Positions 98 through 42,263 of a DNA stretch of 47,013 bases are shown here, one piece after another. The notes under the pieces are model-generated. The model made no database searches, was not told the origin of the DNA, and saw only the letters and a list, made by a program, of their open reading frames with translations. The stretch comes from a virus (Duplodnaviria; Heunggongvirae; Uroviricota; Caudoviricetes): IMG/VR virus record IMGVR_UViG_2541047907_000003. One strand, given 5' to 3'. Both the position numbers and the translations under genes were made by a program. The first letter of the stretch is position 1. The number at the start of each line of letters is the position of its first letter.

Positions 98-673
98 CTA
101 CGGCAGTGCTGGCCATTCAATATCCTGTGAAGTTGACGTATCAACACGGTTCAGCAATACCCGATACTTTTTCCATGCTTCCAGCAACGAGATTTCTTCC
201 TCCGTTGCAATTTCCAGATCTGCAGCATCCTGAAGCGGCGCAATATGCTCACTGGCTACCTGCATCAGGTTGTTTTTTGTTTCTTCCGCCTCCCGGATCC
301 GGAACAGTTTTTCTGCTTCCGTATCCTTCACCCAGGCTGTGCCGTTCCACTTCTGAAACTCTCCTTCCGGCGATAACCAGGTAACATTTTCCGGTAACGG
401 ACCGAGTTCAGAAATAAATAACGCGTCGCCGGAAGCCACGTCATAAACCGTTTTACCCCGATGATCTTCAACGAGATGCCACGATGCCTCATCACTGTTG
501 AAAACAGCCACGAAGCCTGCCGGAATATCTGGCGGTGCAATATAGGTACTGTTTGCTGGCAGACCTGTATGAGGCGGAATATATGCGTCACCTTCACCAA
601 TAAATTCATTAGTTCCGGCCAGCAGATTATAAATTTTTATGGTCCGTGGTTGTTCACTCATTCTGAATGCCAT
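98..673 (-). CDS. tfa: tail fiber assembly protein (lambda Tfa-like)
   Basis: 191-aa ORF; translation [24 protein letters not shown]... recognised as lambdoid Tfa; start shares 1 nt with stf stop (coupled). Confidence 0.85.
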
Positions 674-18753: not shown

Positions 18754-22434
<3,681 letters not shown>

Positions 22435-24797: not shown

Positions 24798-25068
24798 GAT
24801 GTTACCGTAGTATGTGAGTATCCATCGAATAGACACCAAGCAAAAAAGCTCCCGAAGGAGCCTTCATTTTCACTTTTTTAAATCCAACGACAGACGGCTG
24901 GCATTTAAGTATTGTGAAATATTATCAAATGTAATCATCATTGATTTACAAAAGATACATTTTGCCCCGAAAGGATTCATGTCAGAAACATCAAAAGATG
25001 ATGTTCTATACTGGGAACCATGACAACACGGGCATCTAAAGTGAATATGGTTTGTAATATTGTCTACC

Positions 25069-25281
25069 TCAAAGCGCCACTACATGAACAGCGGCAGGAC
25101 CTTTAGGTCCGTTCTCAATACCAAATTCAACTTCCTGATTCTCAGTTAATGTTTTGAAATCGTTGCTCTGAATTGCTGAGAAATGGACAAACACATCTTT
25201 GCTGCCATCTTTCGGCGTGATGAAACCAAAACCTTTTTCAGGGTTAAACCATTTCACTAAACCAGTCATTTTGTTAGACAT
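25069..25281 (-). CDS. cspI: cold-shock domain protein (CspA family)
   Basis: 70-aa [56 protein letters not shown] with RNP1 motif KGFGFI and RNP2 VFVHF. Confidence 0.7.
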
Positions 25282-25643
25282 AATTATTACCTTTTGAAGA
25301 AATTAGCCCTTGGGCAGAATGGTCCGAAAAAAAATATCAGAGAGAAAAACCAACAAGGAAATCTCAAGAGGTACAAATAATAAAATTATAACAATGACTG
25401 CTTCAGATAAATTTGTAACAAACCAGAACACCATTAACGCATGATTAACCACCCATAGCAAGGATTACTTTTGTAAAGAAAAACACAGCAATGAAAGAAT
25501 AGCTTTATTTATTAATAAAACGTGTCATTCTGATTAAGACCTTTTATCTTACCCTTAAGATTTCAGGAATTTTGGCTCATGGAAGAGTCCTTTTTATTTA
25601 AATTTTACATTCCGCGATGTAAATGTTCCGATTTAATATTACC

Positions 25644-27668: not shown

Positions 27669-27950
27669 TGAGATTGTGGTGCTTTTTGTGGGAGTCATCC
27701 ACTTACGCACTTTGTTTTGCGATGCCAGCAGTTAGCTTCTGCTGTGAAACTATTCATGCAGCAAACCTGCACTTCACCACAATGGTTAGCATACTTTTCC
27801 TGATTAAGATTTTGCCAAATATGCTGGCCATTGTTTCATGTATTGGACCTCCTTACTTTTTATTAAAGAGATCCAATATTCACTACTCTGTCCGTATCTC
27901 TACTCAGGCATCAGCCTTCTTCGTTATCGTATACAGACGAGCGATGAATT

Positions 27951-28166
27951 TTAATCAGTAATGATGACATTTGCTGCTGCAGGACCTTTAGCACCACTCT
28001 CTATAGAGAAGGTAACCTTTTGACCTTCAAATAAGGTTCGATAATTATCATTCTGAATCGCAGAAAAATGCACAAACACATCTTTACTACCATCAACAGG
28101 AGAAATAAAGCCGAAACCTTTATCAGCGTTAAACCATTTTACTAAACCAGTCATTTTATTTGACAT
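27951..28166 (-). CDS. cspB: cold-shock domain protein (CspA family)
   Basis: 71-aa [56 protein letters not shown]. Confidence 0.7.
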
Positions 28167-28466
28167 TCTACATTCCTTAACTTGAGCCTTTCGGCATAAA
28201 TGGTTTGCATAACAGAAACGACTTCGTACTTAATTGGAGAGACTCAAAGAAGGAATAAGTGAATAACACCTGAAATGAGAACTGCTTTAGTAAACTACTT
28301 CGTATATCGTCTGTTCTTCAAACCGACGCAATCATTAACGCATAGTTGAACATATGAAGCAATGTTTATTTTAGACATCCAGCCATCTTCAACCCCATCA
28401 AAAAACTATAGCTTTCTTCAGGAACGTGTGTATAGTGCGCCAAGTTATCAGTATTAAGGAATTTTT

Positions 28467-31262: not shown

Positions 31263-31514
31263 TTATTCTTCTGCAAAAGCTGAAAAGCCTGCTTTTATTC
31301 CGATCTCTTTCAGTGCCTGTAATGAAGTGACAAACTCACCTTCGCGCAAGATAAATCTGTCTGTCACTCGACCATCCACAAAATTAATTAACGCAGCCCC
31401 ATTCTTTCGCAAACACATAATGCGGTAATGACTAACAAGATTTCCATTTTCAACGCACACAGCATAGAGGCCATCTTCACAAAAAATTTTACGCAGTTCT
31501 TCGATGTTCATCAT
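31263..31514 (-). CDS. hypothetical protein (possibly Rem-like)
   Basis: 83-aa ORF MMNIEELRKIFCEDGLYAVCVENGNLVSHYRIM...; position and length match what I recall for Qin rem, sequence identity not verified. Confidence 0.4.
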   Translation of the reverse strand: MMNIEELRKIFCEDGLYAVCVENGNLVSHYRIMCLRKNGAALINFVDGRVTDRFILREGEFVTSLQALKEIGIKAGFSAFAEE

Positions 31515-31630
31515 CAGAATCCTTCCGGATAATTAGCTCTCCCCTTTAAGGGACCATCCCTCTTATCCCTGCGCGCTACTTAAGTATTTTTGATTCTATT
31601 CCGGCACCGTCCAGAACTTCAAACGCGTTG

Positions 31631-31662
31631 AAAATAAAAACAAAAACCCGCCGAAGCGGGTT
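31631..31662 (-). terminator. rho-independent terminator downstream of hokD
   Basis: stem AACCCGC-TTCG-GCGGGTT followed on minus strand by TTTTTGTTTTTATTTT. Confidence 0.7.
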
Positions 31663-31730
31663 AAGTGCGGGTGCGTTGAGGATGCCTGACACATCAGAGG
31701 TGGCGAGGGATTTCTCCCTCGCCGGGTCTC

Positions 31731-31886
31731 TTACTCCTCAGGTTCGTAAGCTGTGAAGACAGCGACCTCCGTCTGGCCGGTTCGGATTCGTACCTCGCAG
31801 AGGTCTTTCCTCGTTACCAGTGCCGTCACTATGACGGTTAAACAGATGACGATCAGGGCGATTAACATCGCCTTTTGCTGCTTCAT
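31731..31886 (-). CDS. hokD: Hok-family type I toxin (small membrane peptide)
   Basis: hand-found 51-aa ORF MKQQKAMLIALIVICLTVIVTALVTRKDLCEVRIRTGQTEVAVFTAYEPEE, below the track threshold; a Hok sequence. Confidence 0.85.
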   Translation of the reverse strand: MKQQKAMLIALIVICLTVIVTALVTRKDLCEVRIRTGQTEVAVFTAYEPEE

Positions 31887-31957
31887 AGCCTGCTTCTCCT
31901 GTCAACGCAAAGCAGAAGTGTCACCTTCGGTGCGAAACAGAGATGTCATGCTTTGGT

Positions 31958-32245
31958 TCAGAGAATGCGTTTGACCGCCTCGCTATATACTTCCGAGCGT
32001 TCTCTTTTCCCAACAGAAATCACGAAAACGACAACTTTCTCGTCTATAACCTGGTATACAAGGCGATAGCCTGAAGACCGGAGCTTAATCTTGTAACAAT
32101 CAGGCATACCACGGAGCTTGTTTGCTTCAATCCGGGGTGACTCAAGTACTTCAACCAGCTTCTTTTTCAACTGTTCACGTACCGTCGAGCCCAGCTTTCG
32201 CCATTCCTTTAGTGCCCGCTCGTCAAAATCCAGAAAATACGCCAT
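31958..32245 (-). CDS. relE: RelE mRNA interferase toxin
   Basis: 95-aa ORF MAYFLDFDERALKEWRKLGSTVREQLKKKLVEVLESPRIEANKLRGMPDCYKIKLRSSGYRLVYQV. Confidence 0.9.
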   Translation of the reverse strand: MAYFLDFDERALKEWRKLGSTVREQLKKKLVEVLESPRIEANKLRGMPDCYKIKLRSSGYRLVYQVIDEKVVVFVISVGKRERSEVYSEAVKRIL

Positions 32246-32484
32246 CAGAGTTCATCCAGCGTCACACGTACTGGCTTAGGATTACGAAGCCGTTCTTTCA
32301 CTATCTCCACAAGTTCAGCATCTTCATCACTCAGGAGTGTCTGTTTGAACGGCAAGCGTTCATTGTCAGCGATATACTCGAGCATGAGACGAAGCGCTTC
32401 AGAAGGAGTTACACCCATTTTTTCAAGCGCGGCGTAAGAACGCGCTTTAAGTTCATCGTCAATACGCAGGTTAATGCTACCCAT
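32245..32484 (-). CDS. relB: RelB antitoxin
   Basis: 79-aa ORF MGSINLRIDDELKARSYAALEKMGVTPSEALRLMLEYIADNERLPFKQTLL; stop overlaps relE start. Confidence 0.9.
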   Translation of the reverse strand: MGSINLRIDDELKARSYAALEKMGVTPSEALRLMLEYIADNERLPFKQTLLSDEDAELVEIVKERLRNPKPVRVTLDEL

Positions 32485-32496
32485 GTCTTACACCTC

Positions 32497-32522
32497 TTGT
32501 AATTACAAATGTCATTACAAGT
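32497..32522. promoter_or_regulatory. relBE promoter/operator with TTGTAAT repeats
   Basis: TTGTAATTACAAATGTCATTACAAG just upstream of relB; palindromic TTGTAAT/ATTACAA units read directly. Confidence 0.6.
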
Positions 32523-32814
32523 ATCGCACTACAACATGCTTAGGGCAAGTCACGAAGGAAGTCAGAAAGTAGTCGTAAGAACGGTGATCACTGTCCGCTT
32601 TCTGCCAGGAGCAGCCATTGCTAAGTCCATCCTGTATTGTGCAGGTCAGCTCGTTTTTAAAGAGTCCGGCCATCATCTTACTGGTACAGACACCATATAC
32701 TTTGTGACGGTCAGGCTACATATGCACAACTCAACTTATTCATCTATTTTTTGCTTTAGCATGTCAGTGTTGCTTTCTCGTCGGCGGGTGAGCGGTGACC
32801 TGACCTGTCGATAA
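32509..32814 (+). CDS. hypothetical protein
   Basis: 101-aa ORF divergent from relB; no recognisable domain; could be non-coding. Confidence 0.25.
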   Translation: MSLQVSHYNMLRASHEGSQKVVVRTVITVRFLPGAAIAKSILYCAGQLVFKESGHHLTGTDTIYFVTVRLHMHNSTYSSIFCFSMSVLLSRRRVSGDLTCR

Positions 32815-33016
32815 AGGAACGTAACACGTTTTATGCAACACCCGCATGCGGCAGAAAATTATTGCCGAACGTTTACCCCTGTCAACAAGCTTTACTTTCT
32901 GAGGCGCGCCAGCCCGCGAGGAAAACAATCTGAACATCAAACAATTAATGACACAAGAAATACGATTAAAGATTTTTTTGTGCATGCCGATAGTGCTTTT
33001 TTAAAAGGAGAAATCT

Positions 33017-33349
33017 ATGTCTGTCACAATTCAGGGAAATACCTCAACCGTTATTTCAAACAACTCCGCCCCGGAAGGAACATCAGAAATAGCCAAAATC
33101 ACAAGACAAATTCAGGTGCTGACTGAAAAGCTTGGGAAAATCTCATCGGAAGAGGGGATGACGACACAGCAGAAAAAAGAAATGGCTGCATTGGTACAGA
33201 AGCAAATTGAAAGCCTCTGGGCTCAACTGGAGCAGTTGTTAAGGCAGCAGGCAGAGAAAAAGAATGAAGACGCGACAGTTCAGCCTGATAAAAAAGAAGA
33301 GAAAAAAGACGATACAAATACCGCTGGCACCATTGATATTTACGTCTAA
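33017..33349 (+). CDS. flxA: FlxA-like protein
   Basis: 110-aa ORF MSVTIQGNTSTVISNNSAPEGTSEIAKITRQIQVLTEKLGKISSEEGMTTQQKKEMAALVQKQIESLWAQLEQ. Confidence 0.75.
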   Translation: MSVTIQGNTSTVISNNSAPEGTSEIAKITRQIQVLTEKLGKISSEEGMTTQQKKEMAALVQKQIESLWAQLEQLLRQQAEKKNEDATVQPDKKEEKKDDTNTAGTIDIYV

Positions 33350-33429
33350 GTGACAGCCGTATTGTGGCCCTCATCGGGCCACTTTTCGCCATCAGCCTTT
33401 TCTTTAAAGACATATTATCTTTGTATCAT

Positions 33430-42206: not shown

Positions 42207-42263
42207 TTCTGGTGACGTTTGGCGGTATCAGTTTTACTCCGTGACTGCTCTGCCGCCGTTTTT
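42207..42263 (+). ncRNA. dicF: DicF small regulatory RNA
   Basis: TTTCTGGTGACGTTTGGCGGTATCAGTTTTACTCCGTGACTGCTCTGCCGCC followed by GTTTTT; matches the DicF sequence as I recall it, immediately upstream of dicB. Confidence 0.8.

What the first reader, a model, noticed from the sequence alone, without database searches (positions are those of the whole stretch)
31631..31960. hokD type I toxin gene missed by the ORF track, with terminator and fold-back elements
A 51-aa Hok-family peptide gene lies on the minus strand at about 31731-31886, below the 60-aa track threshold, immediately downstream of relBE. It is followed by a strong intrinsic terminator (about 31631-31662) and a second stem GGCGAGGGA-GAAA-TCCCTCGCC (about 31700-31725) resembling the 3' fold-back elements of hok mRNAs. 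A Sok-like antisense RNA would be expected on the plus strand near 31890-31960; I could not delimit one, and it may be missing or decayed as in some chromosomal hok loci.
Basis: partly seen in the sequence, partly recalled or inferred. Interest (0 to 1): 0.5.

Follow-up and report, generated by a model that had tools for sequence, protein, structure and literature searches.

The report
hokD: Hok toxin orphaned by transposon
The small gene is the already known E. coli membrane toxin gene hokD (relF); it has no antisense Sok partner next to it because a 3.3-kb mobile element carrying the relBE genes landed exactly on its ribosome-binding site and pushed the Sok half of the locus 3.3 kb away.

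Summary
A 51-aa Hok/Gef ORF lies at 31731-31886 (-), 71 nt after relE. It is followed by a 9-bp GAAA hairpin (31702-31723) and an intrinsic terminator (31631-31662). It is hokD/relF of the Qin-type prophage, identical in protein to K-12 b1562, so it is already known.

The interpretation needs correcting. No Sok gene, decayed or otherwise, lies at 31890-31960. Similarity to intact phage hok/sok loci stops at 31900. The 57 nt beyond that are the right end of a transposon.

The window holds both halves of one hok/sok locus. The 5' half (hok promoter, tac, mok start, Sok gene at 35251-35321 +) ends at 35202. The 3' half (SD, hokD, hairpin, fbi, terminator) starts at 31900. Between them lies a 3301-bp element flanked by a 14-15-bp target duplication (AGGAGAAGCAGGCTA). 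The element has imperfect terminal inverted repeats, an intact ISEsa1 (IS1202-family) transposase, flxA, ydfV and relBE.

Elements with the same ends sit at the same position in at least eight different hok genes on plasmids and chromosomes. Each complete copy I could check carries a duplication of its own hok site. hokD is therefore a promoter-less, Sok-less hok gene, transcribed by read-through from the relBE promoter. The hok-targeting relBE transposon appears undescribed.

The parts
31731..31886 (-). hokD (relF) coding sequence, 51 aa, Hok/Gef membrane toxin. The Tyr47 codon TAC followed by G (GCTTACGAA) is the reported TadA A-to-I editing site.
   Evidence: ORF. Pfam HOK_GEF 1.2e-23. Protein identical to K-12 b1562. 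Annotated hokD in RefSeq genomes that are 100% identical over 31400-32700. Editing of hokD is reported in PMC5630033 and PMC12214031.
31886..31900 (-). Right copy of the target-site duplication AGGAGAAGCAGGCTA (14-15 bp). It runs from the hok Shine-Dalgarno to the A of the ATG. Similarity to intact hok/sok loci begins here.
   Evidence: Exact 15-nt direct repeat with 35202-35216 (D10). Phage hits start at query position 61, which is window 31900. Alignment with the intact mEp460 locus.
31702..31723 (-). Conserved 9-bp hairpin with a GAAA loop directly after the hokD stop codon.
   Evidence: Fold. A hairpin sits at the same place in 12 diverse hok loci, and 4 of its 7 consensus pairs show compensatory changes.
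31663..31688 (-). fbi-like (fold-back inhibition) segment. It is complementary to the tac sequence at the 5' end of the severed hok leader and has no partner in the relBE-hokD transcript.
   Evidence: Duplex with 35350-35380 at -33.3 kcal/mol against shuffles -19.9 +/- 3.5, with 2 of 500 shuffles as good. It aligns with the equivalent segment of hokB.
31631..31662 (-). Intrinsic terminator of the relB-relE-hokD transcript (stem 31662-31645, then a T-run).
   Evidence: It is 99% identical to the terminator of the intact phage hok/sok locus.
31901..31957 (-). Right end of the transposon, between the relE stop codon and the duplication. The terminal inverted repeat is about 31901-31927.
   Evidence: Read inward from the end, GTCAACGCAAAGCAGAAGTGTCACCTT matches the left end at 20 of 27 positions. 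The same end abuts other hok genes in pCAV1151-215 and Klebsiella p00001 and in 150 metagenome and viral loci.
31958..32484 (-). relE (31958-32245) and relB (32245-32484), a type II toxin-antitoxin pair. Together with its promoter region up to about 32611 it forms the conserved right arm of the transposon.
   Evidence: Pfam and NCBIfam hits. Window 31882-32611 is 98.4% identical to the right arm in pCAV1151-215. Co-transcription of relB, relE and relF is shown by Northern blots in PMC3598666.
32509..33349 (+). Variable cargo of this copy: ydfV (32509-32814) and flxA (33017-33349). The plasmid copies carry ncr/chr metal-resistance genes in this position instead.
33786..35126 (-). Intact ISEsa1 (IS1202 / ISNCY family) transposase ORF, 446 aa. 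K-12 'ydfW' corresponds to its last 49 codons.
   Evidence: Translation without stops. 99.8% identical to WP_004196353. NCBIfam ISNCY transposase 463.8 bits against a cut-off of 250; HTH and rve_3 domains.
35175..35201 (-). Left terminal inverted repeat of the element, GTGTTAACACCAAGCTGTAATGTCCCC.
35202..35216 (-). Left copy of the target-site duplication.
   Evidence: (D10).
35217..35375 (-). Severed 5' half of the hok/sok locus: the hok mRNA leader with tac (35360-35373), the mok start (35259) and the Sok target. The truncated mok' ORF (35259-35182) runs 25 codons into the transposon end.
   Evidence: Rfam RF01794 at 111.2 bits against a gathering score of 59, at 35205-35371. 98.4% identical to the intact mEp460 locus. 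mok' translation.
35251..35321 (+). Sok antisense RNA gene, with its promoter at about 35215-35243 (TTGCCT-17-TAACCT). It is displaced 3.3 kb from hokD.
   Evidence: Mapped from the sokW annotation of phage 933W. The RNA is 64/71 identical and the 45 nt upstream are 45/45 identical. Its complementarity to the hokD mRNA (-37.1) is no better than shuffled Sok (-42.5 +/- 3.8).

Best explanation
The ORF is hokD (relF), the known Hok-family inner-membrane toxin gene of the Qin-type prophage.

[quoted passage not shown] A 3.3-kb transposon inserted into the hok Shine-Dalgarno/start region and duplicated 14-15 bp of it. The transposon consists of a left inverted repeat, an ISEsa1 transposase, cargo genes (flxA, ydfV), relBE and a right inverted repeat.

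The insertion separated hok from its own promoter, from the tac/mok/Sok-target leader and from the Sok gene. All of these remain 3.3 kb upstream in this window; K-12 has since lost them.

hokD keeps its own SD, its coding sequence, the post-stop hairpin, a now partner-less fbi sequence and the terminator. Because no terminator lies between relE and hokD, hokD is transcribed only as the third gene of the relB-relE-hokD mRNA from the RelB/RelE-autorepressed relBE promoter.

Shown here: the anatomy, the split and the transposon. Taken from the literature: co-transcription, toxicity on overexpression, and low-level TadA editing of the Tyr codon to Cys. Inferred: control of HokD is now transcriptional (RelBE) rather than antisense, and the stable 3' hairpin plus terminator explain why the relF part of the mRNA accumulates.
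For: Identity of the gene. It matches Pfam HOK_GEF. A 1301-nt stretch around it is 100% identical to RefSeq genomes annotated rem-hokD-relE-relB-ydfV. The region is 99.9% identical to K-12 over 31600-33970, and the HokD protein is identical.

The split. The intact hok/sok locus of phage mEp460 aligns to window 35450-35202 at 98.4% and to 31900-30120 at 98.8%. The two pieces share 15 nt of the phage sequence. Thirteen or more phages match from exactly 31900 onward. An exact 15-nt direct repeat flanks 31901-35201. The two ends of that segment match at 20 of 27 positions as inverted repeats. The transposase ORF is intact.

The same element elsewhere. pCAV1151-215 carries a 12.8-kb copy with duplication AGGAGAAGTCAGCTA. 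Klebsiella p00001 carries a 4.66-kb copy with AGGAGAAAAAGGCTA. Metagenome and viral copies carry AGGAGAAGAAGGCCA and AGGAGATGTATGGGT. Every left end with readable flank abuts a hok leader just after the SD: four GTDB loci with three distinct leaders, two plasmids, and the window, giving six distinct leaders in all. Of 155 right-end junctions, 128 are followed by a hok SD and a Hok ORF.

No Sok at hokD. Sok is intact in the 5' half and not complementary to the hokD mRNA. Only one terminator lies in 31450-32650.

Literature. A full-length relBEF transcript is detected with relB, relE and relF probes, it is lost when PrelBEF is deleted, and the relF part accumulates most (PMC3598666). HokD is toxic on overexpression (bioRxiv 10.1101/2025.08.07.668861). 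hokD mRNA is edited at about 6% (PMC12214031).
Against: There are no expression data for this strain. Whether HokD is translated from the relBE read-through mRNA at physiological levels is unknown. In canonical loci hok translation depends on mok, which is missing here, and no significant structure was found around the hokD SD (z = +0.6).

Mobility of the 3.3-kb unit as a whole is inferred from duplications, not demonstrated. ISfinder defines ISEsa1 as a 1609-bp IS with its own 15/22 repeats and no duplication (PMC10132070). The longer unit may therefore be 'IS plus adjacent DNA plus a second right end' rather than a single designed transposon.

The tip of the left repeat is 1 nt shorter here (GTGTT) than on plasmids (TGTGTT), so this copy may be immobile. 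The duplication length (14 or 15 bp) is ambiguous, because the last base of the element equals the next target base.
Confidence: 0.9

Rival explanations
1. One reading: hokD is a self-contained chromosomal hok/sok locus whose Sok gene and leader lie just upstream (31890-31960) and have decayed by point mutation.
For: Chromosomal hok loci with point-mutated regulators exist; hokB in K-12 is one (my recollection of Pedersen & Gerdes 1999, cited). A weak ungapped resemblance between 31900-31957 and hok leaders appeared in the first alignment.
Against: Similarity to intact loci ends abruptly at 31900, dropping from 99% identity to none. The stretch 31901-31957 lies within a 730-nt region that is 98.4% identical in pCAV1151-215, and the same end sequence sits next to unrelated hok genes on two plasmids; it is an inverted copy of the element's left end. 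There is no Rfam sok hit at E<=10. The real leader and Sok are found intact at 35202-35375.
Confidence: 0.02
2. hokD is a dead remnant: an intact-looking ORF that is never translated and has no function, carried along passively by relBE.
For: It has lost its promoter, mok (needed for hok translation in canonical loci), tac and Sok. The literature calls it inactivated by genomic rearrangement (PMC12214031; PMC5630033). Editing is only about 6%.
Against: The ORF is intact and nearly invariant in 110 of 110 Qin-type junctions sampled, and in every plasmid copy the hok ORF downstream of the transposon is also intact. Its SD is retained inside the duplication. The mRNA is made and its relF part is the most abundant fragment. 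The peptide is toxic when expressed. Low divergence means purifying selection cannot be measured.
Confidence: 0.3
3. The 3.3-kb segment is not a transposon. Instead a 1.6-kb ISEsa1 inserted at hok, and relBE-ydfV-flxA arrived separately by insertion or recombination near the IS right end.
For: Similarity of the left arm to plasmid ISEsa1 copies stops at 33581, close to the ISfinder length of 1609 bp. The cargo between the arms differs between copies.
Against: The duplication flanks the whole unit in five different hok targets and five different sizes, from 3.3 to 12.8 kb. relBE always lies next to the distal end. That distal end is a better inverted match to the left end (20/27) than the sequence at 33581. 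Harmer & Hall found no duplication around the 1.6-kb unit, which is expected if the mobile unit is the longer one.
Confidence: 0.12

Closest known systems
hokD / relF (b1562) of E. coli K-12, third gene of the relBEF operon in cryptic prophage Qin
   Same: Identical protein and 99.9% identical DNA over 31600-33970. Same neighbours (rem, relE, relB, ydfV, flxA, ydfW), same 3' UTR architecture and same read-through transcription.
   Different: K-12 has lost everything beyond 33970, namely most of the transposase, the left repeat, the left duplication and the hok 5' half with Sok. The origin of the arrangement therefore cannot be seen in K-12 but is visible in this window. The K-12 hairpin has a G·U pair where this window has A-U.
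hokW/sokW of phages 933W and Sp5, and the hok/sok locus of phage mEp460 (intact phage-borne type I TA)
   Same: The coding sequence, SD, hairpin and fbi are 93-99% identical to hokD, and the terminator is also shared with mEp460 (933W diverges just before it). The leader and Sok are 98% identical to the severed 5' half. The prophage position is the same, upstream of rem and Q.
   Different: Those loci are uninterrupted: hok promoter, tac, mok, Sok target, hok and fbi lie on one mRNA, with Sok antisense to it. Here the two halves are on different transcripts.
IS-disrupted chromosomal hok loci of K-12 (hokA, hokC/gef, hokE, with IS150 or IS186 just downstream of hok)
   Same: In each case a hok/sok locus is disabled by a mobile element that inserts at a precise place without touching the hok reading frame (PMC3562002; PMC12214031).
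   Different: Those IS insert after the ORF and remove the fbi. Here the element inserts before the ORF, removes the promoter, mok and Sok, and supplies a new promoter (relBE).
ISEsa1 and the IS1202 family (the ISAba32/ISAjo2 group targets XerC/D dif-like sites)
   Same: The transposase is 99.8% identical to ISEsa1. The transposase has HTH and DDE domains, the plasmid copies have TGT...ACA tips, and insertion is oriented and site-specific as in the dif-targeting subgroup. Cargo-carrying members are known in the family.
   Different: ISEsa1 was reported as 1609 bp with no duplication and no target. Here the mobile unit is longer (3.3-12.8 kb), ends next to relBE, makes a 14-15-bp duplication and targets the hok translation-initiation region rather than a Xer site.

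Membership tests
Hok/Gef toxin family (Pfam PF01848) | A peptide of about 50 aa matching the family profile above its curated threshold, with an N-terminal hydrophobic helix and a conserved Cys | tested here: met
   82.9 bits against a cut-off of 22, profile positions 1-42 of 42. Protein identical to K-12 HokD. NCBIfam Hok subfamily 48.5 bits, below its strict cut-off of 73.
[quoted passage not shown] | A cis-encoded Sok antisense RNA with its promoter, overlapping the hok mRNA leader | tested here: not met
   Nothing at 31887-31960. The Sok gene is at 35251-35321, on the other side of the transposon, and is not complementary to the hokD mRNA.
[quoted passage not shown] | An overlapping mok reading frame that couples translation to hok | tested here: not met
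   The mok start is at 35259 in the severed half and yields a 25-aa mok' that ends inside the transposon. No start codon extends the hokD frame upstream.
[quoted passage not shown] | A 5' tac element and a 3' fbi element on the same mRNA (fold-back inhibition) | tested here: not met
   fbi is present at 31663-31688, but its tac partner is at 35360-35373 on another transcript. The complementarity is significant.
[quoted passage not shown] | Its own hok promoter upstream of the leader | tested here: not met
   The promoter region lies with the 5' half, above 35375. No promoter-like site lies between relE and hokD. Deleting PrelBEF abolishes the relF signal in K-12.
relBE type II toxin-antitoxin operon (relBEF) | RelB antitoxin and RelE toxin genes overlapping, followed by hokD with no terminator in between | tested here: met
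   RelB PF04221 at 112 bits and the NCBIfam equivalog at 133 bits. RelE matches ParE_toxin and TIGR02385. There is a single terminator, after hokD.
IS1202-family (ISEsa1) transposable element | A DDE transposase of the family | tested here: met
   446-aa intact ORF. NCBIfam ISNCY_2 at 463.8 bits against a cut-off of 250. 99.8% identical to an annotated ISEsa1 transposase.
IS1202-family (ISEsa1) transposable element | Terminal inverted repeats and a target-site duplication flanking the unit | tested here: met
   Inverted repeats match at 20 of 27 positions. Exact 15-nt direct repeat. Four further copies each carry a different duplication that matches their own target: three intact hok SD regions, and one hok SD already interrupted by another IS.
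IS1202-family (ISEsa1) transposable element | Demonstrated transposition of the unit | not testable with these tools
   This needs a mating-out or papillation assay.

The most novel reading that the evidence does not exclude
relBE of E. coli, the textbook type II toxin-antitoxin pair, is the fixed right-arm cargo of an ISEsa1-type (IS1202-family) transposon. This transposon inserts in one orientation, with a 14-15-bp duplication, into the Shine-Dalgarno/start region of hok genes on phages, plasmids and chromosomes.

Each insertion converts a Sok-controlled type I toxin into the third gene of a relBE operon (the 'relBEF' arrangement). It also points the hok promoter and leader into the transposase gene.

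This would explain the 'genomic rearrangement' that orphaned hokD. It would also explain why ISEsa1 was reported to have neither a duplication nor a target.
Probability: 0.7. Interest if true: 0.6.

Novelty: already known. Interest (0 to 1): 0.3.

Why it matters
The gene flagged is a well-annotated K-12 gene, so the finding as written adds nothing new.

What the window adds is the mechanism behind a 25-year-old remark that hokD lacks its regulators 'because of a rearrangement'. Both halves of the original hok/sok locus and the intact inserted element are preserved here.

Comparison with plasmids and metagenomes shows a recurrent, site-specific event. If it is confirmed as unreported, three things follow:
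- ISEsa1 gains the target and duplication that were reported as missing.
- The model relBE module turns out to travel as transposon cargo.
- There is a natural case of one addiction module being rewired under the control of another.

For annotation, 'hokD' genes should be split into Sok-controlled (intact) and relBE-driven (split) classes. PGAP currently gives both the same name.

Tried and rejected
1. Rfam searches for Sok at hokD, at gathering threshold on the whole window and at E<=10 on 31300-32300, found nothing there. The only sok hit is at 35205-35371.

2. I first read 31900-31957 as a diverged leader remnant with a decayed Sok promoter (TGTCAA-17-ACCTTC), based on the alignment. I rejected this when the phage hits showed a sharp breakpoint at 31900 and the stretch proved to be the transposon end.

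3. I first took 33581 as the right end of the IS. No convincing inverted repeat is there; the distal end at 31901 is the partner of the left end.

4. I looked for translational coupling between the truncated mok' and the transposase. The frames differ between the window and the plasmid copies, so nothing can be concluded.

5. The sub-threshold isrK hit on the 3' UTR (25.6 bits against a gathering score of 50) reflects only a hairpin-plus-terminator architecture.

6. The fold of the hokD translation-initiation region shows no significant structure.

7. Pedersen & Gerdes 1999 is not in the held library. Its conclusion is cited second-hand and from my own memory.

8. Literature searches for ISEsa1, IS1202, hok and relBE found no description of this transposon or its target.

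Full report
**The observation**

The minus strand of 31400-32700 carries relB (32484-32245) and relE (32245-31958). After a 71-nt spacer comes a 51-codon ORF at 31886-31731, translating to MKQQKAMLIALIVICLTVIVTALVTRKDLCEVRIRTGQTEVAVFTAYEPEE. The ORF matches Pfam HOK_GEF over the whole profile, at 82.9 bits against a cut-off of 22. The upstream genes match RelB and RelE/ParE families.

The stop codon is followed by a 9-bp stem with a GAAA loop (31723-31702), then a stem-loop at 31662-31645 with a T-run to 31631. That is the only terminator-like site in 31450-32650. The 3' UTR folds better than all 200 shuffles (z = -3.56).

**What it is**

The 1301-nt stretch is 100% identical to RefSeq E. coli chromosomes annotated rem-hokD-relE-relB-ydfV, and 1156 of 5426 complete genomes carry it. 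It is 99.9% identical to K-12 MG1655 (Qin prophage, hokD = b1562), and the HokD protein is identical.

The literature on this gene says the following:
- relF/hokD is co-transcribed with relBE. A full-length transcript hybridises with relB, relE and relF probes and disappears when the relBEF promoter is deleted. The relF portion accumulates most after mRNA-interferase cleavage (PMC3598666).
- HokD is toxic when overexpressed (bioRxiv 10.1101/2025.08.07.668861).
- Its Tyr codon at the family-aligned position 46 is edited to Cys by TadA at about 6% (PMC5630033; PMC12214031). The required TACG context is present (GCTTACGAA).
- hokD is said to lack canonical components 'by genomic rearrangements' (citing Pedersen & Gerdes 1999, which I could not read).

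The gene itself is therefore already known.

**Where Sok is**

Rfam finds no sok at hokD, either at gathering threshold or at E<=10. No promoter-like site lies on the plus strand there. The only sok hit (RF01794, 111 bits) is at 35205-35371 on the minus strand. The model is written in the sense of the hok mRNA, so this hit is a hok leader. The leader stops at ...GGAGAAGCAGGCTA, and an IS end follows immediately.

A search of phage genomes with 31620-31960 gave more than a dozen phages that are 98-99% identical, but only from query position 61 (window 31900) onward. This is a sharp breakpoint 14 nt before the ATG.

Aligning the intact hok/sok locus of phage mEp460 with the window settles the matter. 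Its 5' part equals window 35450-35202 (98.4%) and its 3' part equals 31900-30120 (98.8%). Fifteen phage nucleotides, AGGAGAAGCAGGCTA, are present in both window pieces. The repeat finder reports that exact 15-mer at 31886-31900 and 35202-35216.

The window thus contains one hok/sok locus split by a 3301-bp insertion that made a target-site duplication.
- The 5' half keeps the hok promoter region, tac (35360-35373), the mok start (35259) and the Sok gene (35251-35321, +). The 45 nt upstream of Sok are 45/45 identical to those of sokW in phage 933W, and the RNA is 64/71 identical.
- The 3' half keeps the SD, hokD, the hairpin, an fbi-like segment and the terminator.

**The fold-back element**

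The GAAA hairpin recurs directly after the stop codon in twelve diverse hok genes, with compensatory changes in 4 of 7 consensus pairs. It is a family feature, but it is not the fbi.

The fbi-like sequence is 31663-31688. It pairs with the 5' end of the severed leader at -33.3 kcal/mol, against -19.9 +/- 3.5 for shuffles, with 2 of 500 shuffles as good. In the intact phage locus both sequences lie on one mRNA; here they cannot meet. Sok is no more complementary to the hokD transcript than shuffled Sok.

**The inserted element**

Reading along the minus strand, 35201-31901 contains the following:
- a left end, GTGTTAACACCAAGCTGTAATGTCCCC;
- an intact 446-aa transposase (35126-33786), 99.8% identical to ISEsa1 (IS1202/ISNCY family);
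- flxA and ydfV on the other strand;
- relB, relE and a 57-nt right end.

Read inward, the right end matches the left end at 20 of 27 positions.

K-12 matches the window only up to 33970, so it has lost the left part of the element and the hok 5' half. Its 'ydfW' is the last 49 codons of the transposase. The left junction is kept in 692 E. coli genomes.

**The insertion recurs at other hok genes**

Several independent lines show that this is a recurrent event.
- Plasmid ISEsa1 copies abut hok leaders at the same point.
- In pCAV1151-215 the element is 12.8 kb (transposase, ncrYCBA, chrBA and other genes, relBE). It is flanked by AGGAGAAGTCAGCTA, the SD of that plasmid's own and different hok gene.
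- In Klebsiella p00001 the element is 4.66 kb and flanked by AGGAGAAAAAGGCTA.
- An unbiased scan of one genome per species for the left-end 27-mer gave five loci. All four with readable flank sit just after a hok SD, in three distinct leaders.
- Scans for the right-end 25-mer gave 73 metagenome loci and 77 viral loci.
- Of 155 right-end junctions, counting the five loci already held, 128 are followed by a hok SD and an intact Hok ORF. These represent at least eight different hok sequences.
- Two more complete copies carry matching duplications of their own: AGGAGAAGAAGGCCA, and AGGAGATGTATGGGT at a hok SD already interrupted by another IS.
- relE plus the right end occurs on 678 plasmids.

The conserved parts are the left arm (to 33581) and the right arm (32611-31901: relBE promoter, relB, relE, repeat). 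The cargo between them varies. In many E. coli copies the base before the left repeat differs, so the duplication proper is 14 bp and the element ends ...ACA, as in the family.

**Comparison with the literature**

Harmer & Hall (PMC10132070) list ISEsa1 as 1609 bp with 15/22 repeats, no detectable duplication and no identifiable target. Siguier et al. do not mention it. The recent Hok survey does not describe it either. In the literature I could search, the hok-targeting relBE transposon is therefore not described. I cannot exclude a description elsewhere.

**Mechanism**

hokD has no promoter, mok, tac or Sok of its own. It is transcribed by read-through from the RelB/RelE-autorepressed relBE promoter and terminated at 31631-31662. 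These points rest on the sequence and on the K-12 Northern blots.

Three points are inferred:
- Translation must start from hokD's own SD, which is retained in the duplication.
- Control has shifted from antisense RNA to RelBE autoregulation, with weak editing as an additional brake.
- The hairpin and terminator stabilise the 3' fragment.

Whether HokD is made at physiological levels remains open. The rival view, that hokD is a silent passenger, keeps a probability of about 0.3.

**Verdict**

The flagged feature is already known, so its intrinsic interest is low. The added value is the visible origin of the relBEF arrangement and a probable new target-specific transposon.

Noticed in passing
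window 33786-35126 (-): The ISEsa1 transposase ORF is intact in this window (446 aa). The K-12 gene 'ydfW' (window 33786-33935) is only its C-terminal 49 codons. RefSeq annotates the same region in a near-identical strain as a truncated pseudogene plus ydfW.
   Followed up: yes
L007, L008/L009, L010-L012, L014, L015 and 150 metagenome/viral loci (L016-L165): ISEsa1-type elements with relBE at their right end sit in one orientation at the SD/start of at least eight different hok genes. The complete copies I could check carry matching 14-15-bp duplications (five different duplication sequences). The literature reports no target and no duplication for ISEsa1.
   Followed up: partly
L016, L018, L021, L024 and others (right flank AGGAG(A/T)TGTATGGGTCCACC...): In 12 junctions the right end is followed, after AGGAG(A), by the terminus of a different IS occupying the same spot in a hok SD. 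In one of them the relBE transposon's duplication includes that IS end. The hok SD seems to attract more than one element.
   Followed up: partly
L120: One left-end/right-end pair lies in non-hok DNA with only a 6-bp flanking repeat (ACGCCT). It may be a rare off-target insertion or a rearrangement.
   Followed up: no
window 31641-31722 (-): A sub-threshold Rfam hit to the Salmonella prophage sRNA isrK (25.6 bits against a gathering score of 50, E = 0.003) falls on the hokD 3' UTR. It probably reflects only the hairpin-spacer-terminator shape. The relF 3' fragment is, however, known to accumulate.
   Followed up: no
window 35182-35259 (-); L009 about 19400-19640: The truncated mok' frame runs into the transposon's left end. 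On the plasmid copy it stops 11 codons before the transposase ATG, in the same frame. The hok promoter and Sok-controlled leader thus point into the transposase gene, so Sok might influence transposase expression.
   Followed up: partly
window 31593-31622 (-): A sigma-70-like site (TTGAAG-18-TAGAAT) lies just downstream of the hokD terminator and upstream of rem.
   Followed up: no
window 132-330, 25042-25427, 27935-28327, 38905-39021, 42207-42258: Other Rfam hits above gathering score are IS009, two cspA-type thermoregulator leaders (cold-shock genes of the prophage), an ALIL frameshift pseudoknot of an IS3-family element, and DicF. These are consistent with a Qin-like prophage.
   Followed up: no
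E. coli genome hits H88-H96: PGAP names both the intact, Sok-controlled phage hok genes and the split, relBE-driven copy 'HokD'. The name therefore does not say whether the antitoxin RNA is present.
   Followed up: no
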